From Hormiphora californensis (taxonomy: Eukaryota > Animalia > Ctenophora), in assembly GCA_020137815.1 (NCBI GenBank), contig CM035356.1, forward strand, positions 2,294,001 through 2,358,000: 64,000 nucleotides of DNA. Reading direction: 5' to 3'. Position 1 is the stretch's first letter, and every line of letters starts with the position of its first letter. The notes beneath the pieces are model-generated. The model did no database searches. It had not been told where the DNA came from and was given only the letters and a program-made list of their open reading frames with translations. The translations under genes were made by a program, and so were the position numbers. Shown in pieces: positions 1-62,722 of this stretch.

Positions 1-59
1 ACACGCTGCATTTCCTGTATTGGGTACTGTGGAAGTGTTTGCTCTGTCGTGGTCAGTTG

Positions 60-15233: not shown

Positions 15234-21275
<6,042 letters not shown>

Positions 21276-23543: not shown

Positions 23544-37594
<14,051 letters not shown>

Positions 37595-39783: not shown

Positions 39784-40805
39784 GCTGGCCGGTTCCTGAA
39801 ATACTATATATCAGTGTACTTAAAATAGAGAAGAATTTAACTCGACAAGTGGCTAACGCCGGTAACTGAGAGAGAAAATTGAAAATTTGCGAGAAAATGT
39901 TCGTCTCGCGAAATTTCGGTTTTGAAAGTTTGATTTCTGAAATTCAGATCACGTCGAGAATTTAAAATCGCAGCGCGCGCTCGAAATATTATGAACGCGC
40001 AAATAAAACACGCGCAGTAAGATTTACAAATCTGACGTTTCAATCAGTTAGTTTGATTGTCTATTTATTGGTCTAAAATTTAGGTTTGGTTGACAAAATA
40101 ACAACTCAGATATGGCAGTCATTAATAATGTTCATTTAAGACTTCAATATTTACACGGATACGGATATATCTACCTTCAAGGATTCATTTTTCTCTCATT
40201 CCTTTCCAAAACATGGTATTATTAGCGGAGGGTTTATAGGTCAAGGTAATCTAACAATTCCCTTACCCTACATTCTAAAACTTGGGTAGCAGGGTGAGCG
40301 AGATGCTCAGCGCCCACAATATGGCCTAAAGCCAATGTTTTATCACAGGGATCAAGCTATATTTTCATCTTGAAATAAATTAAGGGATGTCACACATGTT
40401 CGTACACTAACAACGAGAAAGCAATCAGCGATATACGAAAAATACAATTACTCCTCTGCTCACGATTTTCCCACAAGGCATGTGATTAACCGCGTTATAT
40501 AATTATCTGAGCCCTAATATCGATAAATTTTCCTTTAAATATTATTCAATATATCTTATATGACTTTTAAAAACTAAATCAGCTTCCTCTCTCTCTCTCT
40601 TTCATCCAGTTTAAGTAAACCCGAGCTGAATTTCTTATTAGTTCGGTATATCTCCCACCGTCACAATTCACAAATCACCTAAATAAATTACAACGCAAAG
40701 TTCATCCTCTTCTCTGTGGCAGTTCATCTTCCAACATAGTTCTCTCTCTGAGTATTTCAGCAGCTAACGCAGTAGTATTAGTGGTTCACCCACAATGAAC
40801 CGAAT

Positions 40806-41713: not shown

Positions 41714-44700
41714 TCAATCTCTTCTTTCACTATATCTCACAACATTCTCTCCACTTGCTCTCCTGTCTAGCCGATTTTGACAGAGAGAGAGGAGAAGAAA
41801 TAGAAGGAATGGACCCGATAATTAATCAATATTTAGCTACCGTTAACCCGAGTACGCGATAGTTCATTTTAGGGATATAATATAGGTAAACACACACACA
41901 CGCATTGAGCAAGCTCAATGTTTAGCTATTCTCCGGCTGGGTATAGGGCTGAGGTACTGGCAAGATATAGTAGGATCGCTACTGCCCACATGTCAAGTTT
42001 ATTCGGATATACAAGTTTAAAAGGTTGGGGGGTCACTAATATATAATATAGGGTTTATTATTATACCGACATGCGCCTAGTTGGAAATTCAGCACTACAG
42101 TATTTACTGAAGGCAGTAACTACAAATCTAGATCTAGATCCACAAGGAATATATGATGGTATTTCCTAATAAAATATTTGTTTCTTAATTAACTAATTAA
42201 TTGTTCCTTAATAAAGTAATAAATGGTTATTACCTGTCCAAAGTAGGGCGATGTCCTCATGGCGGTGTTGTAGCACTGAGTGGAGTAGGGGGAGTGGGGT
42301 CCAGTTGTTGTACAGGGAGGCGCCACATAGGGTCCAACACCACCCATACAATTGGGGTCCTACAATTGGGAGAGATATTGGTTAGATAGTTGCAATCATT
42401 TGCGAGTTTGGTGAAATCGTGGTTTTTTGAGATGTTCTATAGAATTGTTTGAGAGGGAAGGGGGGGGGGGGCTGAGAAACCAATGGTCGGAGTGAGTAAT
42501 GAGGGGGGGGGGGGTAGAAATGTAGTTATATGATTGTATGACATTTAGTGGGTAAGCGTACCAAAAGCTCTGGGAGAAAGTGAGATAGGGTGTGTGAGAG
42601 AGCGAGCACGGCGTGCCTGGTGAAATTTTAACACGACCTAGCATGCAACGGGAAACCACCACTTGTACGTGGTAGCTGAGGGTCTACAGAATGGCGCTAC
42701 GGTGCGGGAAAAAAAAGTCCATGCCCTAAAATCGTTTTTTTTACTTTTATTTGATTTGGGTCAAAATTGGCTATATTAAACGTGGTCCCGAAAAATTCAT
42801 AATGACTTAGCACACGAAATATGTCACCCCCTACCTATTTTTGCACGTAGAATCGATTGCCGTTGAAGTCGAATCTCTAAAATGACTGTAAAATGGTCAA
42901 AAGTTGATTTTTTACCATTTTTTGGAGGTTTTTGGCCCCTAAACCATTGAAAACGTTGAGATAGGAATTTGAAACTAGTGCCAATCGTTAAAATGGTCAT
43001 TTTTCTACCAAGAACCAAGTTTTCGTGTATATCCGATTTATGGTTAGATTTGGGCAAATTGTTGAAATCTGCCAACTAGGAGAACCGTAACTTGATTTTC
43101 TTGTTTTTTGGATTTTGGCATTTTTGACAAACTTCTGATTGAAATGGTCAATCGGGACCATGCTTAAGTTGTTTATGGGACAATTTTCGACTAAAATCCA
43201 AGATTTCATACCAATCCAATAACAGATCGTTGATTTATAGAAAATTTAAGTAGGCAAAACGGTCAAAATGACAACTTTTCTTGCTTATTTTGACCGTTTT
43301 GCCTACTTAAATTTTCTATAAATCAACGATCTGTTATTGGATTGGTATGAAATCTTGGATTTTAGTCGAAAATTGTCCCATAAACAACTTAAGCATGGTC
43401 CCGATTGACCATTTCAATCAGAAGTTTGTCAAAAATGCCAAAATCCAAAAAACAAGAAAATCAAGTTACGGTTCTCCTAGTTGGCAGATTTCAACAATTT
43501 GCCCAAATCTAACCATAAATCGGATATACACGAAAACTTGGTTCTTGGTAGAAAAATGACCATTTTAACGATTGGCACTAGTTTCAAATTCCTATCTCAA
43601 CGTTTTCAATGGTTTAGGGGCCAAAAACCTCCAAAAAATGGTAAAAAATCAACTTTTGACCATTTTACAGTCATTTTAGAGATTCGACTTCAACGGCAAT
43701 CGATTCTACGTGCAAAAATAGGTAGGGGTGACATATTTCGTGTGCTAAGTCATTATGAATTTTTCGGGACCACGTTTAATATAGCCAATTTTGACCCAAA
43801 TCAAATAAAAGTAAAAAAAACGATTTTAGGGCATGGACTTTTTTTTCCCGCACCGTAGCGCCATTCTGTAGACCCTCACTACCACGTACAAGTGGTGGTT
43901 CCCGTTGCATGCTAGGTCGTGTTAAAATTTCACCAGGCACGCCGTGCGAAGAGAGAGAAGAGAGAGAGAAGAGAGAGCGAGAGGAGAGAGAGAGAGAGGA
44001 GAGCTAGAGATAGATAGATCGCGCTATCTAGAGAGAACGCGAGCGATATAGCGATATAAGCCGAGAGATATATGCATAGATAGAGGCGCGAAGCAGCGAT
44101 CCTGCCCCCGTTTCGCGCTAAAATGGGGCAGCAGAGAGAGAAATATCGTGAAAAAGACGTGGAGATGACTATTTATCTCTGCAATAGATTGGCAGGTAAC
44201 AACTATAACAGCAGATATACTCTCTATCTCTTTCTCTCTCTCCCTCTCTCTCTGCTCGAGGGGATATACGATATAACCTCATGGTTAGACGGAGGTAGTC
44301 AGTCAGATGGTCCGACTACTCAGACACAGTAACGAAGTAGATGTATCAGAGAGGGGGAATATACAGAGATATCAGAGATATATACAGAGAGAAGATATTC
44401 TGGATGATTTTAGTTAGTAGTCCTAAGAGAGAGAGGGGAAAGAGGGAGAAAGAGGGGGATAGAAGAAAAAATAAAATAACTTTAGAATTGCTAAAAGGAA
44501 TAATGTTTGCTATCGACCTAGGTTTCCCAACTAGTTACCCCACAGCCAGGTCTATTTTTACAACCCCCCCCCCCTCCCAGACTGTTGCAGTCCTCATACA
44601 TTGCGGGGGGGGGGGGGGCATATCATTTCGTAACAGACTACCCAGCTCAGACCTCAAACACCCATTCAGGAGTTGGCGGGGGCGAGAGAAAAAGAGGGGG

Positions 44701-44902: not shown

Positions 44903-45823
44903 TGGGGTAAAGTTCACCTAGAGATCGGAGCGAGAAGGTGTAGGAAATGAAGTCATGGCTGGTGTATGATCTTAGCAAGTGCATGATGTCTCGTCATGTA
45001 CTTGATGACATCACTAATTAAATCACTAATTACGTCACTAACTACGTCACTAACTACGTCACTAACTACGTCACTATACTTACTGAAATGAGAGCGAAGT
45101 CTCCATAGTAGTTGTTGTTGATGGTCGGGTTGATCGCAATGGTCTGAGGCATGCCAGGACTCATGGTAAGGTGACCAGGTCGTCCCACAGTGGGAGGTAC
45201 AGGGGAGGGGATCATACCTCCACCTCCACCACCTCCACCGCTACTTCCGCTGTTCTTCCTCCTCCGTGATTTGAAGACAGTGACAACGGGGGCCTTTCCA
45301 GTTCGGTTGGAGGCATCGATCATGGGTTGGACAATTCGTCTCCGGGCGTTGATAAACCAGTTGTTTACTTGGAGGATGGTCAGGCCGGTATCTTGTGCTA
45401 GGGCTCTCTTCTGGTCTTCCGAGGGGTATGGGTGCTGCAGGGAGATGGGGGTTAGAAATGGACTGCAAAATATACAGGGAGTTCAATCAGGCATGTATAT
45501 GTTATTCAGTCTGTTTTGACTTGACAGACCTGTCTACTAAACGTTTTAACACCTAATTGAGTTTGCTTGCAAACAGAGTGTTTATAGGCCAACTTCAAAA
45601 ACAAACAAACAGTGGCAGGGAGATTTGCAATAAGAAGAGTTAGAATACGTTTCACGCAGCTGGAGTGAAAACTGAAGGAGTATCTGAAACCCCCCATATC
45701 TTACCGTGAGATGTTGAAAGAGCCAGGCCTTCATGATATTGGTAGCTGACTTGGGGAAGATGCCTCGTTTCTTTTGGGTTGATTTCGTGTCTTTCTGATG
45801 CTCTGGTTCACAGTGGGGAATTC
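40806..45823 (-). CDS. MEIS: Meis/homothorax TALE homeobox gene, 3' five exons (MEINOX exons not in view)
   Basis: Exons 45705-45823 ([24 protein letters not shown]), 45084-45434 ([44 protein letters not shown]), 42234-42359, 40948-41155 and 40806-40846 (stop) are phase-consistent. Confidence 0.92.
42607..43946. mobile_element. Compound palindrome: TA-flanked foldback element (42700-43855) inserted at the centre of a CAC...GTG MITE
   Basis: Outer arms are CACGGCGTGCC...AATGGCGC and GCGCCATT...GGCACGCCGTG. The inner element is TA|CGGTGCGGGAAAA...TTTTCCCGCACCG|TA with ~570-bp near-perfect arms and a ~20-bp loop. Confidence 0.85.
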
Positions 45824-48417
45824 CTGAGTAGAGAGACACAATGTTAGTTGAGTTACCATGGTAACACGAGAGACACTGTTATCCAAGTTACCATAGTAAC
45901 CTGGCACTTGCTCAACCCTCATGCTCACCACGGGAGGGTTAGAACATAACACCATGGCAGATGGCACCCCACTGCATTTATATCCCATCAGAATCAAGCT
46001 ATGGTTAGCTATGCAAAATTAAAATACCCTAACCATTATAATATGTACACTGTATGGGGTCGGGGTATTGTCATAGATTTTTTCTGAGGTAGTAAGCTTT
46101 TACCTACAGTGTTATTTTGGGGCAGGTTCAATCACCCCTCTTACGGGGATCTTTTCAACGGGGGGCCCACATGTTTTGTGAATACTGAAAGGGGGACAGC
46201 AGGGGGTTAGAGTTTGTTGAGTAACAAGTTAGAGTAGAGTTAAGGGTTAGAGTTACTAAAATCATTACTACAATTCGTGCTTACTCCCCGCTATGCATTA
46301 TGAAACAAAAAAACCGAAAACCAGCATTTTAGCGCCCCCCCCTTAAAAATTTCCCAAAAAAACTAGTGCCCAATCAAAATGACAAAAGAATCCCCAAAAC
46401 CGCTGAGCCTTTGTCGCTCTCTAATGTATTTCAGACGGTTGTCAGTACTGTAGTTATAGGCTCCCCTGATTTATAATAGTCTAGTCATTATGGACTGTCC
46501 AGACGCAGTTGATTTCGAGAGGTTAACCCCGCAGCCACCGTGTTCCTACGCCACCACCAAAGCCCTCTAGGTCTATCGGAACCGCGAATTGACAGGAGGA
46601 ATTATAAGGGTGCACCGGAGTGCAAAGTTTCCGTTTTATTCTTCTCTCTTCTCTCCTCCTCTCTCCTCCCCCCTCCATCTCCCCTCTCTCTCTCTTCTCC
46701 TCCCCTCCCTCTCCTCCCTCTCTCTCCCTCATTAAAAGCCTCGGTCCCCAAAAAATCATTTGCACCACTGATATTACTGTCAAAGTTTTAAACATCTCGG
46801 GACCTCTCCCCCCTTCCCTTTGCTATTATTTTTACATTTACCTTTTTTCGCCCATTTTCCCTTTAATCTACTTTCTAAGCTTCTTCGTTCTTTATTGGAC
46901 GTATTACAACATTATAATGAATTCCCCTCCCTGGTTATAAACCCCCCTCTCATCCCCGCTTCATCCCCCAAAAAACCCTCTGGGGAAGTACTGAAATCAA
47001 GGGGTGCAATTTGTGTGCACGTAAGGATTCCTTCTCCTCTTTTCTCTCTCTTTTTTTCCCCTCATCTCTCTCTATCCTCTCTCCCCTCTCTCTCCTCCCC
47101 CTCTCTCTCCCCTCCTCTCTTCTCTCCTCTCTCTCCTCTCTCTCCTTTCTCTCTCTCCTCTCTCTCCTCTCCCCTTCTCTCCCTCTCTCTCTTTTTTTGC
47201 TCTTTTCTCTCTCCCCTTCCTTGTTTTAAACTTTTTTTTTTAAATCGTCTTCCAGTAAGTGCAATAAGGTTTTAAAGACACTTATGAACTGAAATCTGAA
47301 TACAGATTAAAAAGAGCAACAGATAATATATAAGTGTATGTGAAAGCATTTATCGCGCTAAAGTCTTAAAAAGTCTACTAGAGAGTCGATATACATCTTA
47401 CCCCCCCCATGTTTAGTTGTTCAAGGGCTTTGTGGCGTCGAGGGGACCTGAAAACAGTAGAAATATCATGCCAGAGACATGTAATTTATGTATCTTTATC
47501 TATGTTTCCATTTCACTTACAACACAAAAACCTAACTAAATTTTTTTGACTTGGGGTAAAACCATGGGTGTCAAAAGTTAGCTCTAGGTCTCCTGAGTAA
47601 CCATCCGGAGACTCTAAGCGAATTTCCGGCTCGTTACGCGCAAATGCTTTTCCCGGTAGAGGAATTATTGGATGTGTTGTCGCGTGAAAATTGCTTCGCG
47701 CCAAGACCACTAACGAGGTGTCATCGCGCGCACCTCTAAAAGACGAATGAGTTGCGTGTGACAAGGGAGTGTGCAGGGCGTGACTGTCACGCCCCCTTAC
47801 ATATTACTCAATTTAAATGTTACAAAGAGCCTATGATGAGGTATCACATGGCTCTCAGTCAGTGAATCTCATTAACATATGTGAGACATGATACCTCATC
47901 AGGATATAGTCCGTGGCTTTAATTAGATTGGTCACGAGAACCGTTACACATACCGCGTTAGAGGTGGTACATTAGCAGTGTAGTAGTAGGAAAAGCTTGG
48001 TATAGTGATACCCTCCTCATTTAACGTTACTCTCCCTATATCCCAGGTCAGTATTCCATGAAGCACTCGGTATTTCGCGGGAACATCAACATAACAGGGC
48101 CGGCTTATCAATTCAATGCTTCCAAAACACCTGAGATAGTGATCAATGTGAGTTACTTATTTTATGTACTAAAACAGCTCATAACATAACATGAACAACT
48201 ATTCGAGTGAAACTCATTAAAATTACCTTAGTCGTGGACATTTCAGCAAGGAGTTTTATCCATATTCAACAGAGAGTGTCAATCAGAGAGTGTCAATTTC
48301 ATTTCACTGGTATTGTTCTTTTAATTTGTGTACTACCATGATGCTATTACATGAATTGTTGTTACATGAATTATTACACGAGAGACATTCATTTACAATG
48401 GAGGAACAAGGACGGTA

Positions 48418-48607
48418 CAGTCGGACCCCGATTTAGTGGCAGGATAATCTTCCCCCGATTGCCTAGCTAGACTGTGTTTTACAAGTGTAAAGGGAGGGTT
48501 AGAACATAACAACCCCCGATATAGGAAATTAACCCCGATTTAGTGGACACCCCGATTTAGGGGCCAAAACCCTTCCCCGAGGATGCCATTAAATCGGGGT
48601 CCGACTG
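48418..48607. mobile_element. MITE family B short copy inside the Academ element
   Basis: TA|CAGTCGGACCCCG...CGGGGTCCGACTG|TA. Confidence 0.85.
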
Positions 48608-48682
48608 TAGTTATATTAGAAATCGTGTAGAAATAGTATATTATCAAACGGTGGGGAGATCTCAAGAGATCTCAAATGAAAT

Positions 48683-49827
48683 TTATTGTGATGATGGCAA
48701 CGATATAACTGGAGATGGCGGGGAGACTGGAGATGGCAGGGAGACTGGAGATGGCGGGGAGGCTGGAGATGGCGGGGAGGAGGCCTGGTAATTTCGCTCC
48801 GCCTTGACCACTGAAATGGTAAGAGCTTTTTGGAATCATTTCAAAAATGAGAGCGACAGAGAGGGATGGATTTAGGCGCCGGCAGGCACCTCCGACAATT
48901 TCAGGCAGCGATCATCTACTCCATCTTTCAGCTACCCTACCCCTCATCTACTCCATCTTTCAGCTACCCTACCCCTCATCTACTCCATCTTTCAGCTACC
49001 CTACCCCTCATCTACTCCATCTTTCAGCTACCCTACCCCTCATCTACTCCATCTTTCAGCTACCCTACCCCTCATCTACTCCATCTTTCAGCTACCCTAC
49101 CCCTCATCTACTCCATCTTTCAGCTACCCTACCCCTCATCTACTCCATCTTTCAGCTACCCTACCTCTCATCTACTCCATCTCTCAGCTTCCCTACCTCT
49201 CATTTACTCCATCTCTCAGCTACCCTACCCCTCATCTACTCCATCTCTCAGCTACCCTACCTCTCATTTACTCCATCTCTCAGCTACCCTACCCCTCATC
49301 TACTCCATCTCTCAGCTACCCTACCTCTCATTTACTCCATCTCTCAGCTACCCTACCCCTCATCTACTCCATCTCTCAGCTACCCTACCTCTCATTTACT
49401 CCATCTCTCAGCTACCCTACCTCCCATCTACTCCATCTCTCAGCTACCCTAGCTGAGATGGGGTCTAACTCTAGCCCCTGGTCAGCCAGGTCTAACTATA
49501 GCTTATTTCAGGTGGGGTGAGATGGGGTCTAACTCTAGCCCCTGGTCAGCCAGGTCTAACTATAGCTTATTTCAGGTGGGGTGAGATGGGGTCTAACTCT
49601 AGCCCCTGGTCAGCCACCTGTAACTCTAGCTCATTTCAGGTCGGGTGAGATGGGATCTAACTCTAGCCCCTGGTCAGTTGCTGACCAGGGGCTAGAGTTA
49701 GACCCCATCTGGAGATTTGGGAAAGATCTCTCTAGTTGAGGGTGTTCGGTGACAGATCTGCGTGTAACCTCTGCGGAATCGGACGAGGGGAAGCTTGCCT
49801 TTTGCGAACATAGAGATAGAGAGAGAT

Positions 49828-49876
<49 letters not shown>

Positions 49877-51717
49877 GGGAGGGGGAGAGAGACAAATAAA
49901 GAGAGAGGCCCCTCACTTTGTTTTGGTGAGTAGGTATCGTCACCGTCACTCTCCGTCCTAACTCCTGAAATGGAAAGAGCTTTTTGGAATCATTTCAGTA
50001 TCACCCACAGTAGGGGAAGAGGGGCAGGGTACGCCATGGCCCAAGTACTGTGTGATTTTAAATGACTGGGACTGGAATATTGCAAATTGCGTGAAAATTA
50101 TAGCATCTTTCGACTTCAAATTTTGGGACATGATAAAACTAGGTTGTAGCAATTTTCTCCTAGTTTTACAGCAAATTTCAATGTTCCTGAATGAATCTAT
50201 TGCCCAAAAACCTCCTCCAACTTTACACAGTCATATCTCTGGAGTCTAATGAGATAAAGAGTTCAAATTTTTAGGAGAGACAGATAAGACAATTTCGAAT
50301 GTTTTGTCTGCTTTACGAGTTGCTACAATTTACCATTTGTTCACAGGAACTGTTTAAAGTGATGTAAGACGCTCTAATTAGGCCAAATTTAGGTCATTTT
50401 ACCCCTCAAAGATCACATGTCCAGCTGCATCTAGTGGGCTAATGAGGCCTTGAACACGCATACGTCACGTGTTACTACAGGGCTACAGATCTCCTTTTCC
50501 ATCTTGAACCAGCAGACATGTTCATGGCGTCTGGAAGTGATAACAAGCTGTAGAAAACCAGACAGACTAGATGCTCTCTACTTCAACGTATCACTCTCTC
50601 CCTTTCTCGTTATAAGGTCACGTGACTGGAATTGGGATCTCGACATGGGAGAGAGAGAGAGAGAGAGAGAGAGAGTGTGTGAGAGAGAACGCTTTGTAGA
50701 CACTGTGATCATGTCGAGATCCCAATTCCAGTCACGTGACCTTATAACGAGAAAGGGAGAGAGTGATACGTTGAAGTAGAGAGCATCCAGTCTGTCTGGT
50801 TTTCTACAGTTTGTTACCACTTCCAGACACCATGATCATGTCTGCTGGTTCAGGATGGAGAAGGAGAGCTGTAGCCCTGTAGTAACACGTGACGTATGCG
50901 TGTTCAAGGCCTCATTAGCCCACTAGATGCAGCTGGATGGAGACTGTGAACATAGTTACAGTGAGGAAGGGTAGAATATTGCACGTGCAACTCTTACTGT
51001 CTTCACTTCACTCTGATTTTGTTTCCTCCTATCCCGACTCCACCCCACAGCGCCACCATCTGTACCATCACCCACCAAAAACCAAGGATCAAGCCCCTAT
51101 TGTGTAATGTGTATACCCGTAAACCAAGTACAAGGCAGTAAAGAACTTCTAACCTCTAACAGGACCCCATATTTCCACCCACCACCCACCACAGCACAGG
51201 TATAACTGAGTCGGCGGTGTTAGTGCTATACGTCTCATAATCGTCCACACAGGGGTCAGGGACATGGAATGAAATATATTTGCCATCACCCCAATTACTA
51301 GACACCAGTTTATTGGATATACATACTTACGAGCACTGGAAAACATAGTTCCGACTTGGAAAGACTCTTCCGTTTTCTCCGGTAGATTTTCCGTTGTATC
51401 TTCGCTTCTTTCTTCTGTGTCCTCCTCGTCCATTATCTCATCATACAAATATTTAATCTTCTTAATCTTCTTTCGTAAATTTTCGTATTTCACCTCCAAT
51501 TTCCGTGTCCTCTTCTTCCACTCCATAGCGGTCTTTTCCAGTTCAATCTCCCTTTTTTCTCCCTCTTCCAATTTCCGTAATAATTCCAGATTATCACCCT
51601 AAATAGATTGACGTTAACAGTTAACCTACAGTATTCATTACCAACTACAAATACCTAGTTCTTAAAATTTACCTCAATTTTATTCATGTGATTCATCGCC
51701 TCACGCAGTGGTTCCAT
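48683..51717 (-). CDS. Second Academ-internal gene: small coiled-coil/acidic protein (~162 aa), divergent from the transposase
   Basis: Exons 51673-51717 (MEPLREAMNHMNKIE), 51331-51598 (coiled coil + acidic region), 49917-49964 and 48683-48810 (SPPSPV repeats; stop overlaps AATAAA) are phase-consistent. The last two exons are less certain. Confidence 0.6.
48913..49710. repeat. 32-bp minisatellite (same family as the 24.9-27.1 kb arrays) followed by ~4 copies of a 64-bp unit ending in an inverted partial copy
   Basis: CTACTCCATCTYTCAGCTACCCTACCCCTCAT x~17, then TGAGATGGGGTCTAACTCTAGCCCCTGGTCAGCC.. units, then the inverted CTGACCAGGGGCTAGAGTTAGACCCCATCT at 49681-49710. Confidence 0.9.
50420..50937. 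mobile_element. Palindromic MITE-like insert (~225-bp arms, GA-rich loop) inside Academ
   Basis: TCCAGCTGCATCTAGTGGGC...GCCCACTAGATGCAGCTGGA. Confidence 0.8.
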
Positions 51718-51991
51718 TCTGCAGAATCAAAGTAAATTTTTGAAATGTTAAATGGCCCAATTTTGAAATTTGGCCACAAGCTGAAATTTTTTAACAAGTC
51801 TTTTTTAGTTTTAATCAGGCAGCGCCGCAATTCAATTAGGATCATGCGCGCAGCGCGATTTTCATTTAATGCACTTTTAGATTATGCAAAAATCCGATGA
51901 ACTAACTTTTGAACCATTTTTTGTGAACGAAAACTTGTTGAATGTCAAGGCATAATGAAATAACAGAAAATCAACTTCGTTCTACTTCATC

Positions 51992-53312
51992 ATGCATTGT
52001 ATTGTTTGCCGTTTAAAGGATCTCAAGGTTTGCTTATATTACTTTTCTGTGTCTCGATCATTTCAGGTTTTAACACGGATAACCTGGACAGGATTCGAAA
52101 TCAGCCCATTTCCTAAACCGATTTGCTATATCGCTAGAAAATTCAAGGTTTAACTTTAGTCTGTTGTTTAATGGTTAACCATGATTACAAATGCCAAATT
52201 TGATATGAGTACTGATACCTTTTCTCATCATCAGGGCGGTGGACGACAAGCAGCAACAGCAACGACATCAACCCCCAAAAAAAGCCATCTGCAAAAGATT
52301 ACGGACAAGGCATTCGGTAATCTTGCCAACGCGTTGCTAGGGGGTGAGCATCGAAAGTTTTTTGAGGATCATTTCACGAGAGAAGAGTACCCTGAAGGGG
52401 TATGTTTTAATCACTTGATTTACTTTTTCGCACAAAAGCAGAGGTACATCCACAAGAAATGTCGTAACAAACTCACCAAAACTGTTCTTCAATATGATGA
52501 TACAAGGGTTTTCCTCTGGGACCACCCGGACCGAAATTGGACTCATGGCGAGGGCCAGGAAGAATCTTTACCATCTTTGCCATCTGGGAGCGGTACCGTT
52601 GTCACTCTCTCCTGCGCTCCTGGGTCACCAGCCACGACTTGTCAATCTACATCTTTTCAACCTGCCACACCGGTCACGTCTTGTCAGCAACCTGCATCTT
52701 TTCCACCTACCACACCAGAGACTCAATCTCCAGCTGTTCGAACAGAGGATTCCTATTTCCCTAGGGACGGAGGTGCCCTAGTAGAACTTAAAGTGGTTAG
52801 ACGGGAGATGATCGCGGCAAATGACAGTCCCTACCAAGGTGACATTTCAAATTTTGATTCAGTAGCTCCAACCTCACTACTTCGAGCGATGTGTTTTCTA
52901 CTTACGGGTGAAACAGCTAGATATCAGGAGAGGAGATTCCGTGCACTAGGAGACATTATGATGAACCACGTTATAACCAGATCATCAGCAGAACCTAGAG
53001 TAAGTTACCATCTCGAAATATGTGTGGATTTCATTACCCCCCCCCCCCCCCCCCCCCCATAACTCATATATATACAGACCATTTTGTAATTTAATCATTT
53101 TACCAGGAATCTTTCCGGCTTGAACGGGAAAGAGATACGCCAACACTGGTGTACAATTCGCTTAAGGTGTATAATGCCACGCACCAACGGGCCCCATTGG
53201 ATACTATGTATAGGAGCCTTTCTGTAAGTATTATAGCATTACTCCACGCTTCCTCCCTCTCACTCTCCATCCAGGCCATCATTCTGTTTCTTTGAATCAA
53301 ATCAATCTCTCT

Positions 53313-53361
<49 letters not shown>

Positions 53362-56300
53362 TCTCTCTCTCTCTAGACTACCTCTCTCTATCTCTCTCTT
53401 CCTCTCTGTCTCTATTTCTCCTGTATTTTGACGTGGATTTATGTTGCAGACTCTTAGCTACGAAAGAACACGGAAGATTTTTGTTTCGATGGCCGACCGA
53501 ATTCTCCGCCAGTATAAATCAGATGGAGAGGCATTTCAAGCTACACCTGAAGATGCATCTGACGATACTGCCTACTGCTACCTACAGGTACCCTTCAATG
53601 CTCCACATGATGTCTTCGTGGTGTTCCGGCACGACAATATTGATCGGAATGCCAGAGATCTTCTAGGAACTACTCATTTCCACGGCACCTCAATCAGTGT
53701 GGAATACTTCCCTACACCAGGTAAAATATACACATTAGCATGTAACAAGTAGCATGTGCCATAAAATACGCCCACCACTAACATATGTAATGCCATTCAC
53801 ACTTGATGGTTACAACTTATAATATATTATTTGCCAGGGTGATGGATTGTTTGAAATCAAAATACGTGACCTATGAATTAATACAAACTATTCCTTCCAG
53901 AAAACCCAGGGAGAGAACGGGAACATGTCGCCTACAAGGAGGTAGACAAGCTGTCCCTGTCAGCCCCAGACCTCTGTATCGAGGTAGATGACACTTTCTT
54001 CATCCCCAAAGCTGCTGTTGATCTAGTCACTCGATTTGAGTACCTCCCCATTGACGCTAATCTGGTAAATATTAGAAAAATTTGAATACCCCCACCCCAC
54101 TAAACTGGAAGTAATATATTCGGTGTGTTCTGTGTATTTGCAATACAAGTAACAAATCATATCGATAGGTATCTGACTGTTTAAAAGAACAGTTTAACTG
54201 GTTGAATGATGAAAGGGTACTTCCATGGGGAGTTTATCACAGCCGGTACCAGGAAGAGACATTGCCATCAGTGACAGATGCACTACCTGTTATTGACAAG
54301 AAATCAGATGACCCTGCAACTGTACTGCACTGTCTTAACATAGCAATGTAAGGAAGGGAGGGAGGGAGCTAGAGAGGGAGGTAGAGAGTGACGGGGAAGT
54401 GACGGGAAGGGGGCTTAATTATAAAGATGCAAATACGTGTCCTATTCACAAATGCATATCCTATCCACACGTTCAAATAGAGGGGGTTGCCACGGGGTGC
54501 CCTAGCTGGGTATGGTAGGTTGCACGTGCAGGTTGGTGCAGGGGGTGAGAGGGGTGCTTCTGGTGAGGGAGAGTGTGGGTATTCGGGTCAACGAGTGCTC
54601 TACTTCAATAATACATATCAAAAGTGCTATAAATTGAACATTTCAGACGGGGAACCAAGTTTTTGAACCCGGGTCAAGTTGCTGTGGATGTGGCAGATCA
54701 ACCAATCTACAAACAGGCTAAAAGAATACAAATGGCCATGGCAGATAAGGGATATGGAAAGCAGATTGTCTTTCTTATTTTAGGACCATTCCACATAGAG
54801 AAGGTAAACTCGAAAAAATTAGTAAATATTTATTTCGTTGAATGATTGACAGTCTATTTTTTGCATTAGTGGAAATCATACATACATACATAATGAGCGT
54901 TAACTTGTTTTTTAGGTGACATTGGATATGGGGGTACTTCTTGTGGGAAATGTCGGATTGTCTGAGTTATTAGACAAGACAAAGATGAGTGTGGCCGGGG
55001 CTGGTGAAGCTGTGAAAGGGACAGGAAACCAGCTGAGGACGTTATACATCTTCCAGGTTTTTCTGTACGTGCTTCACCAGTTTAAATCGGAGTGTACGAG
55101 TCCTTCAACGGAATCACCTGCCTACCGATTTTGGGATACAGTTTACCGGTATCTCATGTTGCTGTTGGGGCTACACTACGCAACCAGGGCTCGGAACTTT
55201 TCAATGTACGAGGCCCTGCTAGAGACAATGCTGCCCTTCTTTTTCTCACTCGACAGAATGAATTACCAGGTAACAAAAAACATAATATACTGAATGTGTA
55301 GGGATATATATATTATATGTATGTTATTTTCATTGCTTATATAAAACATACACGTACTTATTACATACTTGCCTACTTGAAAACAAGTTATATTTTTTGG
55401 CTTTAACCCCCATTTTTTTCCTGTTATCCAGGTGTGGCTTACAGTATTCCTAGACGATCTACGCCAACTACATGCAGAGAACCCGGCACTAAGGGAGAAA
55501 TTCGAGTCTGGGTGTTTCTTTTCGTGCGAGTCAGGGCGACCTTTTAGTTCTGTTGCACTTGACCAGTCCCATGAGTTTGTCAACCGACGACTGAAAAACT
55601 GCATGGCACCACTCGGATCAGATGATAGTTTAGCGTACAACTTAGCTGGCCCCCAGATCTCCCGAGAATGCAGTGCATATGAGGAAATGTCTGACCTTCG
55701 ACCTGCAGGGGAACCCAGTAATGAGAGACATGATGACAACGCTGGTACCATTCTTCGTTTTTCGGAAGATGTGAGGAACCTGAAAGCAGCAATGTCAGCG
55801 AATCCGTTTACTACAGGGTCTGTATGTTATCTAAACAATGGTTCTGAAGTGCCACGTTCTGACGAGATGGTTTCGGGAATTGAGAAGATGGAAGAGGACG
55901 GGAGGAAAGCAGCAACCAAGTTCAGGGAGGAACGACTCTTCACATCAACGGTTCCTGTAACAGCTACAGTACACAAGGTGAACCTGCTGATGGCAGGAGA
56001 AGAGGATGTCACCGCAAGAAAGGAGGGGAAGAAGGCTGAAAAAGTGGCAGTTGACATTTTGGGGAAACTGGCCAAAGTGGCTCCTTTAAGACCACAGCTG
56101 GTGATGACCGCCCTCCAATACGATATTGATAACGTGGCACATGTCTTTGTCAATGGAGGTCAACTGCATCAACCACCCAAGTCTGCACTTCTCACACTTG
56201 CCAAAGAATTTGTGTTTCTTGGACAGAAGAGCGGATCCGGAGCTGCTATTGCTGATCTTTCTGTTGTTGTGACCCAGTTGGGGGCAAACAGCAAAGCGTC

Positions 56301-58064
56301 CACCTTCACCACCTTCTTCAGCTCGGTCTGGGCTGAATTAAACTCAATTGGTAAATTCCCAATTATTTTTAATACTCTATTTTAGTATTATTGACAACAT
56401 ATTATACGGGTTTCAATAATTTATTTGCATTTAAAGTTGTAATTAATGAATGAAACCCTTTCTCAGATCGGCGTGCTCGACGGCTGGACATTGTTGGGGA
56501 TAATTATAGGGACCACCACATCCTTAAGGAGAGTGTTAGGTAAGAACAAATAGTTAATTTAGTTCGAACACTGTATTCAAGATTAAGAAGTTCCGTGTCA
56601 GAGTTTTGATATCATTTCTGGGCTGTACAAATGAACCAGACGGGTTATCCAATCACCCGATTGTCAAATGCATAAAACCACATACTTTTGTAGGACAGAG
56701 CGAGGTTCAGGGACAGAGATCAATTTCAACGGGAGAACACAGTTCCCTAAGAACTTCATCGGTGATTTCCTGCGGAACAACAACAACAAAAATAAGTTGT
56801 ACGACCTGATGGCCCCTTACTTTATGCAGCGGGCACAGGACAACGATTTGAAAATTGCTGTGACCCATGGAAGGTGCGTATTATTACTTTCATCAATCAC
56901 AGCGTAAAACTATTTATTGAGTATGTGACAGTGAATTGTATGAGACAAGTTCTTTAAATACACTATTTCAACGGGTGAATTGTCTCGGATTCGCTGAAAA
57001 ACTGCCGTGCATTTATTTGATTCAATGCTGATGATTAATTACAACACAGGAAAGTGTCAAAGACGTGCAGGAGTGACCTCGAATCATCCACTCATCTGGA
57101 GGCAGATATAAGGATCGTCCAACACATCTTGGATCAAATGAGGCATGCCGATCCCCCCTTGGATTATATAACCGTAAGGTAAGATCGAGAAAAACCAACA
57201 TCAAAGACATGTAACTGTTTTTGTATTCAGACTAATATAAACTACCTATTCATTTACTCAACAGACTAATATAAACTACCTATTCATTTACTCAACAGAT
57301 CAAATGACACTGACGTGTTGGTGATTTTGCTGTCGTACATGGAGGAGCTAGAGAAAACGAGGCCGAGCTGCATCATTTACCTCGACACCGGTGTTGGTAA
57401 GGCAAGGTACACCATTGACCTGTCTACAATGTATCTGTCTTTGGGTAACATCCGGTGCAAAGCGCTTCGTTTTCTCCACGCTTTCACCGGATGCGACTTC
57501 ACTCCAGCATTTTTCGGCCAGGGAAAGCTAAAGGTGGTTAGGGCAGCATTTGAAGATCTTGATCTTTGCAAGGTCATGGCCACTTTAGCTGTGGACATAT
57601 CAGTGTCGAGGGATCAGTTGAGGGCAGTCACAGACTTTGTTATGCGGCTGTACAAATATGATGGGTTAACTGCCACCGAGGCCCGGTTCCGTGCCCTTCC
57701 GTTGGCAACGCAGTGGAGGAAAATGCCACCGACGGAGGGGGCAATCCACTGCCAAGTTTGGAGGGCTACCTACATTGCAGCCTCCTTTTGGGGGAAAGGA
57801 TGCAACCCCGTCCCAACGATTCTCTCTCCAGCAGGGTTTGGGTGGAGTGTAAAGGACAACCAACTCAGTTTTGTGTGGAACAAGGACACAACCAGCAGCC
57901 CAGTGTACCAGCAGCCCATCACAAGCTGTGTGTGCCGGTCAGATGGGGGATGTAAACGGTGTAAGTGTGTGAAGATGAGAATGACATGCACCCCTCTCTG
58001 CAAGTGCAAATGTGCCCACGTGGCCAGTCTACTAGTTGATCAGGTGATTGCTGATATGGACTAG
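51992..58064 (+). CDS. Academ transposase + XPG/PIN-like nuclease + Cys8 zinc finger, 13-14 exons, ~1370-1400 aa
   Basis: Exons 51992-52027 (tentative), [52067-52147 optional], 52235-52999, 53107-53223, 53450-53720, 53901-54064, 54169-54347, 54647-54803, 54916-55269, 55432-56350, 56467-56539, 56694-56873, 57050-57178 and 57299-58064 keep frame with no stops. Motifs: HDNID, LNPGQ..DQPIY..AK.IQ, GPFHIE, DRMNY..WL, FSSVALDQSHE, HLEAD, SNDTDV, HAFTGCD, MPPT, and a C-terminal CxC..CxxCxC..CxxxCxC. Confidence 0.9.
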
Positions 58065-59313
58065 TACCAGACACCAGTAATATTGATTGCTGTTTATTTA
58101 TTCATTTTATTTGTTTACTTTTATGACTGTATGGGATGTGGTACAGTTCAGAACCCGGTGAACCCCTGTGTTTTGATATTTCTTTGGTGAGGAACCCGCA
58201 ATTCGAACCTATCACCCACCCACCTGCCTATAAGAACCCTCCGTCCCCATGTTCTATCATTTCTACACTATTTCTAACTACCTCCCTTGTTCCTCCAGCC
58301 CTGCCAATAAGATAATTTATATCTCGTGCAATAATTCATGTAACAACAATTCCTGTAATAGCATCATGGTAGTAAAAGAACAATACCAGTGAAATGAAAT
58401 TGGCTCTCTGTTGAATATGGATAAAACTCCTTGCTGAAATGTCCACGACTAAGGTAATTTTAATGAGTTTCACTCGAATAGTTGTTCATGTTATGTTATG
58501 AGCTGTTTTAGTACATAAAATAAGTAACTCACATTGATCACTATCTCAGGTGTTTTGGAAGCATTGAATTGATAAGCCGGCCCTGTTATGTTGATGTTCC
58601 CGCGAAATACCGAGTGCTTCATGGAATACTGACCTGGGATATAGGGAGAGTAACGTTAAATGAGGAGGGTATCACTATACCAAGCTTTTCCTACTACTAC
58701 ACTGCTAATGTACCACCTCTAACGCGGTATGTGTAACGGTTCTCGTGACCAATCTAATTAAAGCCACGGACTATATCCTGATGAGGTATCATGTCTCACA
58801 TATGTTAATGAGATTCACTGACTGAGAGCCATGTGATACCTCATCATAGGCTCTTTGTAACATATTAAATTGAGGTAATATGTAAGGGGGCGTGACAGTC
58901 ACGCCCTGCACACTCCCTTGTCACACGCAACTCATTCGTCTTTTAGAGGTGCGCGCGATGACACCTCGTTAGTGGTCTTGGCGCGAAGCAATTTTCACGC
59001 GACAACACATCCAAATAATTCCTCTACCGGGAAAAGCATTTGCGCGTAAACGAGCCGGAAATTCGCTTAGAGTCTCCGGATGGTTACTCAGGAGACCTAG
59101 AGCTAACTTTTGACACCCATGGTTTTACCCCAAGTCAAAAAAATTTAGTTAGGTTTTTGTTGTTGTAAGTGAAATGGAAACATAGATAAAGATACATAAA
59201 TTACAGTCTCTGGCATGATATTCTACTGTTTTCAGGTCCCCTCGACAGCCACAAAGCCCTGGAACAAAACCTGAAACATTCGGGGGGGTAAGATGTAATT
59301 ATCGACTCTACTA

Positions 59314-62300
59314 TATCGCCAAATGGCGCCATTTGGCGATAAGAATAGCAAATTTTCAATGCTTTCAAAAATATGACGCTCGCCACTCGGCGCCGCGTGG
59401 CGCCATTTGGCGAAAAAATCGCCAATTGGCGCCGAACGGCGCCAAATGTCGCCAGTTGGCGCTAAACGTCGCCATTTGGCGCCAAATGTCGCCATATGGC
59501 GCCAATTGGTGACATATGGCGCAAACTGTTTGTCAAATATTAGTCGCCATTTGTCGCCAAACGTCGCCATCTGGCGCCAAACGTCGCCATTTGGCGCCAA
59601 ATGTCGCCATATGGCGCCAAATTTTTGTCAAATGTTTGTCGCCATATGGCGCCACTTGGCGCCGAACGTCGCCATTTGGCGCCAAATGTCGCCATACGGC
59701 GCCAAATGGCGACGTTCGGCGCCAAGTGGCGACAAATGGCGACGTTTGGCGCCAAATATTTGACAAAAATTTGGCGCCAAATGGCGACGTTTGGCGCCAT
59801 ATGGCGACATTTGGCGCCAAATGGCGACTAACATTTGGCAAACATTTTGGTAAAAGGGTCATGACCCTAAGTGACCAATTTTTGGCGCCAATTTTCGATT
59901 TTTTGGCGCCAAAAACCATTATTGGCGCCAAATATTATCGCCAATAAAAAATACCGGCGCCAAAACGCGATTTGGCGCCGGTTTTTTTGGCGCCAAAGCT
60001 CTTTTTGGCGCCGGCTTTTGGCGGTTCACTTGGGTGAACCCTAAAAAATTGGCGCCAATTCTGAAATTGGCGCCACCCATCCTTGACCCTAAGTTTTTGG
60101 CGCCAATAATTCATCATGTGACCCTTTTGTAATAAAATCGGTGCCAGAAACTCGTTGGCGCCAATATATAGCGCCAATTTTTGGCGCCAATTATTCATCC
60201 TGTGGCCCTTTCGTAACAAAATATTGGCCCAAAATGATGTAAATTGGCGCCAATTTATGGCGCCAATTTATGGCGCCACATAAAGTTTGTAATTTGCCGT
60301 CCGTAGAAATGCTTGGAGTGGTGATGATGATGGAGTAACCTATAAGCGTGCAACACTAGCGTGCAACAATTACCACTTTTGCCCGTGCGAATCAAGTGGT
60401 TGTTATGGCGGGTAGGCAAGGTCAAATGCGTGAATACTGCACGTGCATGTTGTTGGATGCGTGTTATGTGTTCGGGTGTTCCTGCCATCTACAACTGGGG
60501 TTCCCATGATTGCCAAAGCTTTCCTACCTATAGGTACGTACGCACGTACGTATACGTACCCCCAATACAGCTCCAGTTCTACGAATCTTTATCACCTGAT
60601 TCAATATATTTGAAGGGAACCTCTTCCTCAATCCTTATCACCATCCCTACCACTCTACCAACCTTTATATTCTTCAGCCCGACATGATGAAGAGATGGAG
60701 TGAGAGAGAGAGAAAGAGAGAGAGCTGAGAGAAAGGGGGAGAGAGACAGAGAGAGAGAGAGAGAGAGTAGAGAGAGAGAGAGAGAGAGACTAAGAGAAGA
60801 TAGAGAGAGAGAAGAGAGAGCGTTATAGCATAGATCTTATCTTTCTATATCTCTCTCTCTCCCTCTCTTTCTCTCTCTTTCTATCTTTCCCTCTCCTGTA
60901 CTCTCTCTCTCTCTCTCTCTCTTTCTCTGATACTCCTCTCTCTTCTCTCTTCTTCTCGTCTCCTTCTCTTTCTCATCTCTTTCCCTCTGAGAAAGATAGA
61001 AGATTAAGATCACGTAGGTACATCCAACGGGGTTCGACTAACGTCTAAGATGCAGGGTCCAACCAACAGGCTTTCTTGTCCCTAAGATCTGTTACTTGAC
61101 ACTCCGTATCTTAATTTTCAATAATGTACCTAAATTACAGCCAGTACCTAATGTTAAATGGCATTCCTCCACGTTTGAAGGGCCCAGTTATAACTGGAAA
61201 GATGCGTGTGACGAGTTTCGGGGTCAGACATTGTGATAGTACCACTGGTAATGAAAGTTATCCGCACAAATGCCAGCATCTGCAAACTGAGCTGTCTGGC
61301 GGCGCCAGACAGCTCTGACAGATCCTGACAGTGCGCTCAGATGGGGTCACGGCGCCAGACAGAAACTGAATGTTTTGTTTTTTTGGCGCCAATAATTGGC
61401 GCTAATAAATTGGCGCCAAAAAGTGGCGCTAACAACTAGCGCTCAAGGGTTACTTAGTCGAAATTTTAAAGTTGGCGCTAATGATTGGCGCCAATTTTCC
61501 ATCCTATGACCCTAAATATTCAACAAATTGGCGCCAACAGTTGGCGCCAACTTTCGCCAGAGTTGGCGCCAAAACTTAGGGTCAAGGATGGGTGGCGCCA
61601 ATTTCAGAATTGGCGCCAATTTTTTAAGGTTCACCCAAGTGAACCGCCAAAAGCCGGCGCCAAAAAGAGCTTTGGCGCCAAAAAAAACCGGCGCCAAATC
61701 GCGTTTTGGCGCCGGTATTTTTTATTGGCGATAATATTTGGCGCCAATAATGGTTTTTGGCGCCAAAAAATCGAAAATTGGCGCCAAAAATTGGTCACTT
61801 AGGGTCATGACCCTTTTACCAACATTTTGCGCCATATGGCGCCATTTGGCGCTATATGGCGATATTTGGCGCCAAATGGCGACGTTCGGCGCCAAGTGGC
61901 GACAAATGGCGCCATATGGCGACGTTTGGCGCCAAATGGCGACTAACATTTGACAAAAATTTGGCGCCATATGGCGACGTTTGGCGCCAAATGGCGACAA
62001 AAATTTGAAAAAAATTTGGCGCCAATTGGCGACGTTTGGCGCCAAATGGCGACGTTAGGCGCCAAATGGCGACAAATGGCGCCATATGGCGACAATCGTT
62101 TGACAAACATTTGTCGCCATATGGCGCCAAATGGCGACAAACGGCGCCATTTGGCGAATTAATCGCCAGTTGGCGCCACGTGGCGCAGAACGGCGAGTGT
62201 CCTACTTTGAAAACCAATAAAAATATTATTGATACATCGACAATTTGCGCCAAATGGCGATGTTTGGCGATGAGTATCGCCAAGTGGCGCCAAACGGCGC

Positions 62301-62722
62301 CATATGGCGAAAAATTCGCCGAATGGCGCCATTTGGCGGCACTTTGTGACGATTGGCGCCAAACGGCGCCATTTGGCGACGAATGGCGCCAGATGTCGCC
62401 AAACGGCGCCATTTGGCGACTTGATCTCCTGATCACTTAATGGCGCCAAATGGCGCCATTTGGCGATAACAATTTTGCGCATGTTTTTTTTCAGACTTTG
62501 TACCATCGCCACGTGGCGATACCGCCAAGAGTCGCCAATATTTGGCGAATGGCGATCGCCACTGGCGCCACGTGGCGCCGCGTGGCGCCACGTGGCGCCA
62601 CATGTGGCGCCAAATGTGGCGCCAAATTTTGGCGCCAAATGGCGCCATTTATTCGCCACGTGGCGCCATTTGGCGAATTTGATGGCGCCATTTGGCGCCA
62701 TATGGCGCCATTTGGCGCGCAC
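59314..62722. repeat. Inverted pair of GGCGCC-rich, 10-bp-periodic arrays (foldback-like element) around a ~1.1-kb spacer
   Basis: Units TTGGCGCCAA/ATGGCGACGT. Unique anchors (GGGTCATGACCCTAAGTGACC; CCACCCATCCTTGACCCTAAG) at ~59855-60100 recur inverted at ~61570-61815. Confidence 0.85.

What the first reader, a model, noticed from the sequence alone, without database searches (positions are those of the whole stretch)
47379..59313. Apparently intact, intron-rich Academ transposon with ~1-kb TIRs
Seen: near-identical long TIRs, and a transposase that splices through 12-13 canonical introns with no stop or frameshift, even though host genes in this read carry indels. Known: Academ elements have TAG ends and a transposase-XPG-Cys8 protein. 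Inferred: the element is young or active, and this many introns in a DNA transposon gene is unusual.
Basis: partly seen in the sequence, partly recalled or inferred. Interest (0 to 1): 0.8.

Follow-up and report, generated by a model that had tools for sequence, protein, structure and literature searches.

The report
Intron-rich Academ transposon in comb jelly
A 12-kb cut-and-paste jumping gene of the Academ type, likely from a comb jelly, has matching 0.9-kb ends and an unbroken enzyme gene that would need 11-12 introns spliced out, so it is likely young and still able to move although the relatives examined are about half as long and show no such introns.

Summary
Real. 47379-59313 is an AcademX-type DNA transposon in a likely pleurobrachiid ctenophore. 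It has TAG...CTA ends and 910-bp terminal arms; all 18 arm differences in the window are likely assembly errors, since short-read contigs carry the right-arm version at double depth. Eleven GT-AG introns (probably a twelfth) join a stop-free 1375-1409-aa protein. It is 25% identical to intronless relatives, and a relative's model matches P-element/Hermes transposases and Exo1/XPG nucleases. Coding variants are 15 of 18 synonymous; a second sample differs at 7 of 4164 bases. So the element is intact, under selection and probably young and low-copy. Not shown: splicing in RNA, movement, a target-site duplication. None of 47 related loci has a multi-intron gene; full-length ones are 5-6.4 kb. The intron count is unusual for AcademX but not for DNA transposons: plant CACTA genes have 11-24 exons. 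A 3.6-kb spacer holds nested repeats and a possible second gene. The scan noted other Academ elements before, one with eight exons, on other DNA. The defining Academ paper could not be read.

The parts
47379..59313 (.). Whole AcademX-type element, 11,935 bp in the window
   Evidence: TAG...CTA ends, long inverted arms; TIR contig starts exactly at TAG in 3 of 4 runs, one base further out in the fourth
47379..48276 (+). Left TIR core (imperfect extension to about 48417); window copy carries likely assembly indels; contains a high-copy host repeat segment at about 47524-47618
58404..59313 (-). Right TIR core, 910 nt (imperfect extension to 58279)
48416..48609 (.). Nested TA-flanked MITE (26-nt arms), high-copy in the genome; also next to element sequence in the second sample
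48912..49710 (.). 32-bp minisatellite (16.9 copies) and 64-bp tandem/hairpin; the 32-bp unit is shared with the palindrome at 24356-27695
50420..50937 (.). Nested hairpin repeat, 228-nt arms, 96% complementary
51331..51718 (-). Candidate second gene, head-to-head with the transposase: exons 51718-51673 and 51598-51331 join in frame (K/E-rich, coiled-coil-like); further candidate exons 51096-50998 and 49964-49917. Unverified
   Evidence: splice signals; no homolog or family found
51992..52147 (+). Probable first coding exon (ATG, CxxC), followed by an 87-nt intron 52148-52234
   Evidence: weak donor, strong acceptor, 13-aa match to a P. bachei relative
52235..52999 (+). Exon with YxHxxC motif and Ser/Pro-rich linker (alternative start ATG at 52181 gives the 11-intron, 1375-aa model)
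53107..55269 (+). Six exons of the transposase core: 53107-53223, 53450-53720 (DNxD), 53901-54064, 54169-54347, 54647-54803 (DQP and H566), 54916-55269
55432..56350 (+). Largest exon: conserved D731/E735 of the transposase core and first acidic residue of the nuclease domain
   Evidence: 67% identical to a P. bachei fragment
56467..58064 (+). Four exons of the XPG/FEN-type nuclease and 9-Cys tail: 56467-56539, 56694-56873, 57050-57178, 57299-58064 (stop)

Best explanation
This is an intact AcademX-type cut-and-paste transposon, likely autonomous, low-copy and recently mobile, whose lineage likely gained 11-12 host-type introns during a long stay in comb jellies. The host spliceosome would remove the introns to give one protein of about 1400 aa (splicing inferred from signals and homology). 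Its P-element/Hermes-like DDE core (D374 or D377, D534, E735 in the 1375-aa numbering; roles inferred) would bind and cut at the TAG ends and join them to a new site. The fused Exo1/XPG-type 5' nuclease would trim the flap or overhang at the junction, leaving the 3-bp duplication seen in relatives (inferred, untested for any copy here). Because the element moves as DNA, introns and nested repeats are carried along at no cost to the reading frame. The long arms were likely built and kept identical by copying between the ends, since both carry the same captured host repeat.
For: Stop-free spliced frame whose junctions fall inside conserved motifs. 91 of 108 highly conserved columns kept, against 82-112 of 93-112 in 13 homologs, with all acidic motif residues but one (E1094 to L) and all 9 tail cysteines. 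Model of relative P0283: residues 1-434 match P transposase (Z 10.3, rmsd 4.7, 272 aligned) and Hermes (Z 6.6); residues 598-963 match Exo1 (Z 13.6, rmsd 3.9, 263 aligned) and XPG (Z 11.3). Arms identical in short-read contigs, at depth 134-136 against 61-63 inside and 59 in the flank in run X1. Second sample: 7 differences in 4164 bases, both coding ones synonymous. All listed coding variants: 15 of 18 synonymous, or 16 of 23 with five doubtful rows, against 23% expected, p 1e-7 and 3e-6. A sister family at about 88% identity is present in the second sample. 0 of 47 related loci show more than 419 nt of excess length against 1756 nt here; 14 of 47 are single ORFs over 1200 aa. 10 of 30 relatives with TAG...CTA ends show a 3-bp TSD.
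Against: No TSD at this copy (TAC vs TAT), and the two flanks do not continue each other as one repeat. 21 conserved columns are changed or missing, more than in the P. bachei relative P0023 (93 of 111 kept), and the branch is long (1.68, quick tree only). Contig depth close to the flank depth fits a single locus, and the tool warns that depth is no copy number. The structure match is for a 25%-identical relative; the window's own last exon gave only weak matches (best Z 6.2 to XRN1; Foldseek E 0.77 to FEN-1). The 47 comparison loci were picked on the last exon and many come from a few assemblies, so they are not independent. 12 of the 18 coding variants come from one contig of the sister family.
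Confidence: 0.75

Rival explanations
1. A domesticated, single-locus host gene derived from AcademX. Introns accumulated after it stopped moving, as in TLEWI or domesticated piggyBac genes, and the arms are kept alike by local conversion.
For: Element depth equals flank depth in X1 and X6; strong purifying selection; long branch and several changed motifs; many introns are typical of domesticated transposases (bioRxiv 10.1101/656579 passages).
Against: Complete TAG...CTA ends and 910-bp identical arms, whereas TLEWI lack TIRs. A sister family exists in the same species. Introns and exons differ by only 0.17% between two samples. The flank contig runs on 29 letters in sample S1 but 107 in S2, a hint of a different or empty site whose letters I could not see.
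Confidence: 0.12
2. A recent but already immobile copy: the gene is intact but the element is silenced or damaged at its left junction (flanking deletion or assembly join between two copies), so it is not active now.
For: No TSD; error-rich left flank not covered by contigs between 47353 and 47391; three nested repeats in the 5' spacer; low apparent copy number.
Against: The terminal sequence itself is intact in short-read contigs of both samples; nested repeats lie outside the coding exons; no disabling change in the second sample's contigs over 53891-58291.
Confidence: 0.11
3. The introns are an artefact of forcing a decayed, insertion-riddled intronless copy into frame.
For: No RNA support in hand; introns 5 and 10 hold high-copy host repeats.
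Against: All 11 gaps are GT-AG, 10 with GTAA donors; leave-one-out scores put the donors in the top 0.1-17% of GT sites. Seven of 11 lengths are not multiples of three yet the frame closes. No terminal inverted repeats in the introns and boundary repeats of only 0-6 nt. Exon variants are synonymous.
Confidence: 0.02

Closest known systems
AcademX lineage of the Academ superfamily (Kapitonov and Jurka 2010; Kojima 2020; neither held, known here from a passage of PMC10045372, and from recall)
   Same: One large transposase-nuclease protein with a Cys-rich tail; TAG...CTA ends like the related loci fetched here; 25-26% identity over 1150-1260 aa to full-length relatives.
   Different: 11.9 kb against 5.1-6.4 kb for full-length related loci and a mean of 5565 bp for curated bivalve Academ (PMC10294476 passage). 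11-12 introns against none detected in 47 loci. Identical 910-bp arms against 25-304-bp arms mostly at 68-90% identity. 3.6-kb spacer with nested repeats and a possible second gene. TSD not readable.
Pleurobrachia bachei gene models sb/3474633 (P0013), sb/3460723 (P0023), sb/3461740 (P0022)
   Same: Same protein family in a close ctenophore; P0013 is 64-67% identical over about 100 aa of the largest exon; P0023 and P0022 group with the window protein in a quick tree (97 SH-aLRT, long branches).
   Different: P0013 is a 135-aa fragment; P0023 is only 26% identical; their exon structure and ends could not be fetched.
Intron-rich CACTA elements (maize En/Spm, soybean Tgmt*; PMC2613891 passages)
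   Same: Autonomous-type DNA transposons with many spliceosomal introns (tnpA 11 exons; Tgmt* gene 24 exons).
   Different: Plants, another superfamily; most of those introns lie in the accessory tnpA-like part, whereas here they interrupt the DDE core and the nuclease.
TLEWI Tc1-like elements of bivalves (bioRxiv 10.1101/656579 passages)
   Same: Low-copy animal DNA transposases that gained GT-AG introns within one host lineage.
   Different: 2-5 introns, no TIRs, proposed to be domesticated; this element keeps long intact TIRs and has 11-12 introns.
AcademH (helicase-bearing Academ)
   Same: Same superfamily; a two-gene head-to-head layout is recalled for AcademH, not read in a call.
   Different: Helicase and 9-10-bp TSD; here a fused nuclease, no helicase-like ORF seen, no 9-10-bp duplication.

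Membership tests
AcademX | DDE transposase of the Academ type | tested here: met
   25% identity over more than 1150 aa to a family whose model matches P and Hermes transposases; DNxD, DQP, H, D..E motifs kept. The name Academ for this family is recalled; no Repbase sequence was available.
AcademX | Direct match to a curated Academ reference sequence or profile | not testable with these tools
   No Repbase/Dfam; Pfam gave no family for 10 exon translations, as PMC5751038 reports for Academ (passage).
AcademX | Nuclease (XPG/FEN type) encoded by the element | tested here: met
   Relative's model Z 13.6 to Exo1 and 11.3 to XPG; D962, D1005, E1095, D1097, D1124, D1126, D1187 kept; own last exon weakly matches XRN1/Exo1/GEN1/XPG.
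AcademX | C-terminal Cys8-type cluster (feature recalled) | tested here: met
   9 cysteines at 1331-1359, all conserved in homologs.
AcademX | TIRs with TAG...CTA ends (feature recalled; seen in related loci) | tested here: met
AcademX | 3-4-bp target-site duplication (PMC10045372 passage) | tested here: inconclusive
   TAC left vs TAT right in a stretch with many assembly errors; relatives show 3 bp in 10 of 30.
AcademH | Helicase gene and 9-10-bp TSD | tested here: not met
   No long ORF or Pfam helicase hit among the frames examined; flanks share no 9-10-bp repeat. A heavily spliced gene in the spacer was not scanned exon by exon.
Domesticated transposase gene (TLEWI/PGBD5-like) | Loss of TIRs | tested here: not met
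   910-bp identical arms.
Domesticated transposase gene (TLEWI/PGBD5-like) | Single fixed syntenic locus across individuals and species | tested here: inconclusive
   No genome held; depth ratio near 1; flank contig lengths differ between samples but their letters were not shown.
Active autonomous transposon | Spliced transcript and demonstrated transposition | not testable with these tools
   Only contigs of DNA runs hold the stretch.

The most novel reading that the evidence does not exclude
A ctenophore lineage of AcademX that became fully host-gene-like while staying mobile: about 12 newly gained introns inside the catalytic domains, kilobase arms rebuilt from captured host repeats, and a second head-to-head accessory gene. 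If other ctenophore elements do the same (an unchecked scan note reports an intron-bearing LINE in this genome), comb-jelly genomes may select for spliced transposons, for example because unspliced transcripts are silenced, and sister families would give a dated series of intron gains.
Probability: 0.3. Interest if true: 0.68.

Novelty: new variant of a known kind. Interest (0 to 1): 0.42.

Why it matters
Introns are described as rare in animal class II elements and as a step toward domestication (bioRxiv 10.1101/656579). A TIR-complete, apparently young element with 11-12 introns in its catalytic gene shows that heavy intron gain need not end mobility. It offers a compact system for dating intron gain in the ctenophore lineage, since the relatives examined lack these introns. 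It is also one more intact candidate for testing what the fused XPG-type nuclease of AcademX does, though intronless single-ORF relatives (14 of 47 loci here) would be easier for that test. It does not define a new kind of element.

Tried and rejected
Genome-wide copy search: no whole genome is held. Expression: no RNA holder listed; the one guessed-RNA run X8 laid 0 records and organism-B run X7 matched only short repeats; neither counts for or against. Pfam named none of 10 transposase exon pieces. A PDB sequence search with alignment A1 gave only a designed toroid protein and Exo1 at E 0.7. Foldseek of the last exon gave nothing at E<=0.001; Foldseek of the relative's model listed no transposase among the rows shown. 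Candidate second gene: no homolog among 20 candidates of 81-261 aa, Atlas best 0.85, no tblastx hit in 80 loci. Atlas hits for the N-terminal exon (viral RdRP, 0.84) were rejected as noise. Introner origin of the introns: no shared sequence between introns beyond one 12-nt match and no clear terminal inverted repeats. The profile comparison of five N-terminal models was confounded by truncation and only its first domain score was used. Micro-introns of 39 and 42 nt were rejected on short matches to P0023 and P0022. No upstream exon of the TALE homeobox gene was found in 44 minus-strand frames on either side, so insertion in its intron is unproven. Rfam: 0 matches. The careful tree did not finish; only the quick tree was seen. 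Kojima 2020 is not held. Rows left out of the 15-of-18 count: five at 57755-57767 beside a 3-nt insertion (added back as 16 of 23), intron and 3' rows from repeat contigs, and one row the tool did not show.
Full report
Observation. The two ends form an inverted repeat from 47379 to about 48417 and from 58279 to 59313: 1002 of 1011 aligned columns are identical, with 52 gap columns. The strictly shared core is 910 nt and differs at 18 columns in the window, 16 of them indels. Short-read contigs laid on the left arm carry the right-arm letters. In run X1 the contig over 47392-47578 shows 2 mismatches and 9 gaps and the next one 3 gaps, which are the numbers my arm-to-arm alignment gives for those intervals. 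The 16 unaligned letters before 47392 equal the right-arm length back to TAG. These contigs have depth 134-136 against 61-63 for internal sequence, so both arms likely share the same words. I read the arms as identical and the left-arm differences as assembly errors. Sample S1 may be the source of the window; sample S2 (X5, X6, another study) shows the same corrections.

Gene model. Twelve exons between 52181 and 58064 join through 11 GT-AG introns of 104-299 nt into 1375 codons without a stop. Ten donors are GTAA; leave-one-out scores place donors in the top 0.1-17% of GT sites and acceptors in the top 0.2-19% of AG sites. Junctions fall inside motifs that are continuous in intronless relatives. 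An upstream exon at 51992-52147 with an 87-nt intron gives 1409 aa and adds a CxxC that matches a Pleurobrachia relative over 13 aa. Two in-frame micro-introns are possible, but short matches to P0023 and P0022 favour reading them as coding. So 11 introns are firm by homology, 12 are likely, and none is confirmed by RNA. Runs of S1 hold 0.97-0.98 of the sampled words of 51000-58300, so the coding region is accurate.

Host. RNPC3 is 89% identical to a Pleurobrachia bachei protein, 70% to Bolinopsis and 36-46% to the other named animals and fungi among the 120 hits listed (the P. bachei source of that id series is shown). I infer a pleurobrachiid ctenophore. The best hit of the largest exon among 212 at E<=0.001 is a P. 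bachei fragment at 67%. Two more P. bachei models group with the window protein in a quick tree with long branches. This fits vertical persistence in ctenophores; horizontal transfer was not tested.

Protein. The model is 25-26% identical over 1150-1260 aa to full-length relatives. It keeps 91 of 108 columns that are at least 85% conserved among 30 homologs, including D374, D377, D534, H566, D731, E735, the nuclease acidic residues and nine tail cysteines; 21 of 112 columns are changed or missing (numbering of the 1375-aa model). A model of relative P0283 (pLDDT 86) matches P-element transposase (Z 10.3), Hermes (6.6) and ISCth4 (6.0) in residues 1-434, and Exo1 (13.6), XPG and GEN1 (11.3) in residues 598-963. 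The window's last exon alone gave weak matches to the same nuclease superfamily. PMC10045372 (passages) states that AcademX carries a nuclease and makes 3-4-bp TSDs, AcademH a helicase and 9-10 bp. The label Academ for this protein family, the TAG ends and the Cys8 tail are recalled, not read from the defining papers.

Age, selection and copy number. Five S2 contigs covering 4164 bases differ at 7 positions: two synonymous, five non-coding. For scale, a published pleurobrachiid has 2% single-nucleotide heterozygosity (PMC8527503, passages); I did not show that this is the same species. A separate S2 contig over 55947-56028 carries 12 changes, 10 synonymous, which marks a sister family. Over all listed coding variants 15 of 18 are synonymous against 23% expected (p 1e-7; 16 of 23, p 3e-6, with five doubtful rows). 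Contig depths inside the element roughly equal the left-flank depth in X1 (61-63 vs 59) and X6 (120-130 vs 112) and exceed it in the uneven runs X4 and X5. The tool warns that depth is no copy number, so I take this only as a hint of low copy number. The flank contig continues 29 letters past 47352 in S1 and 107 in X6, and an X3 contig runs 27 letters past 59315 unlike the window. Both hint at other alleles or sites, but the letters were not shown.

Against the reading. There is no clean TSD: TAC left, TAT right, in a stretch not covered by contigs (47353-47391). The right flank is a GGCGCC-rich repeat that does not continue on the left. A flanking deletion or an assembly join cannot be excluded. 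Activity is therefore inferred, not shown.

Comparison set. Of 80 related loci from metagenome contigs (best 80 of 463 confirmed, scan incomplete), 47 span at least 900 aa of a reference protein. None exceeds three times its protein span by more than 419 nt, against 1756 nt of introns here, and 14 are single ORFs over 1200 aa. Their best inverted arms, found in 24 of 47, are 25-304 nt. Thirty loci gave a TAG...CTA pair and 10 of these have a 3-bp TSD. The set is biased toward an unbroken last exon and toward a few assemblies. Three unnamed long ORFs in the window protein's clade span intron positions 8-11, but they may come from transcripts.

Spacer. Between the left arm and the gene lie a TA-flanked MITE, a 32-bp minisatellite, a hairpin repeat and a candidate minus-strand gene with two well-signalled exons. 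The candidate has no homolog in three searches and stays unverified. High-copy host repeats also sit in both arms and in introns 5 and 10, which suggests long residence in this genome lineage.

Literature. Searches found no paper on intron-rich or ctenophore Academ; the single hit for Academ plus ctenophore (PMC10379824) concerns Tc1/mariner and was seen as a listing only. Kojima 2020 and Repbase could not be read and may already record such cases. bioRxiv 10.1101/656579 (passages) calls introns in class II elements rare, with 2-5 in TLEWI and up to 12 in a domesticated gene. PMC2613891 (passages) gives 11 exons for En/Spm tnpA and 24 for Tgmt*. PMC5751038, PMC10294476, PMC10799480, PMC4455052, PMC9587614 and PMC12221973 were seen as passages only; no supplements were opened.

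Verdict. A real, intact AcademX-type element that is likely young and low-copy, and a structural variant of its family: double length, 11-12 introns, identical kilobase arms. Interesting to transposon and intron specialists but within known kinds: interest 0.42.

Noticed in passing
window 24356-27695: 3.3-kb palindrome with 1644-nt arms at 97% and a central 32-bp minisatellite, the same unit as 48912-49451 inside the Academ; its ends are not TAG...CTA.
   Followed up: partly
window about 42617-43945: Second long palindrome (arms about 660 nt) downstream of the homeobox exons of the TALE-class gene; fold-back elements look common in this genome.
   Followed up: no
window 59314-62720: GGCGCC-rich 10-bp repeat element with inverted arms (59480-60106 vs 61563-62156, 84%) abutting the right TIR; high-copy in both samples. 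A GC-rich motif marks ctenophore loop anchors in PMC12221973, but I did not see its letters.
   Followed up: partly
window 57228-57299: Intron 11 ends in a perfect 34-bp duplication that includes its acceptor, like the 'mirage' exon-edge repeats noted elsewhere in this genome.
   Followed up: partly
window 55947-56028: A contig of sample S2 with 12 changes, 10 synonymous: a sister Academ family of about 88% identity in the same species.
   Followed up: partly
window 38159-39810 (-): RNPC3 (U11/U12-65K, minor spliceosome; name from homologs) with residual assembly frameshifts.
   Followed up: partly
window 45069-45810 (-): TALE-class (Meis-like, recalled) homeobox exons about 1.6 kb left of the element; upstream exons not found in the window.
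   Followed up: partly
window 1-1700 and 46600-47390: Homopolymer-rich, low-quality sequence typical of unpolished long-read consensus; the second stretch hides the left target site.
   Followed up: partly
window 13887-14666, 18964-20261, 30826-32685, 35268-36392: ORFs that look like a retroelement fragment, a papain-family protease, a 619-aa Cys-rich membrane protein and a LINE ORF1-like protein, by eye only.
   Followed up: no
L017, L026, L027, L063: Internally deleted Academ-type copies of 2.6-2.7 kb with TAG...CTA ends and 3-bp TSDs that keep the nuclease end.
   Followed up: no
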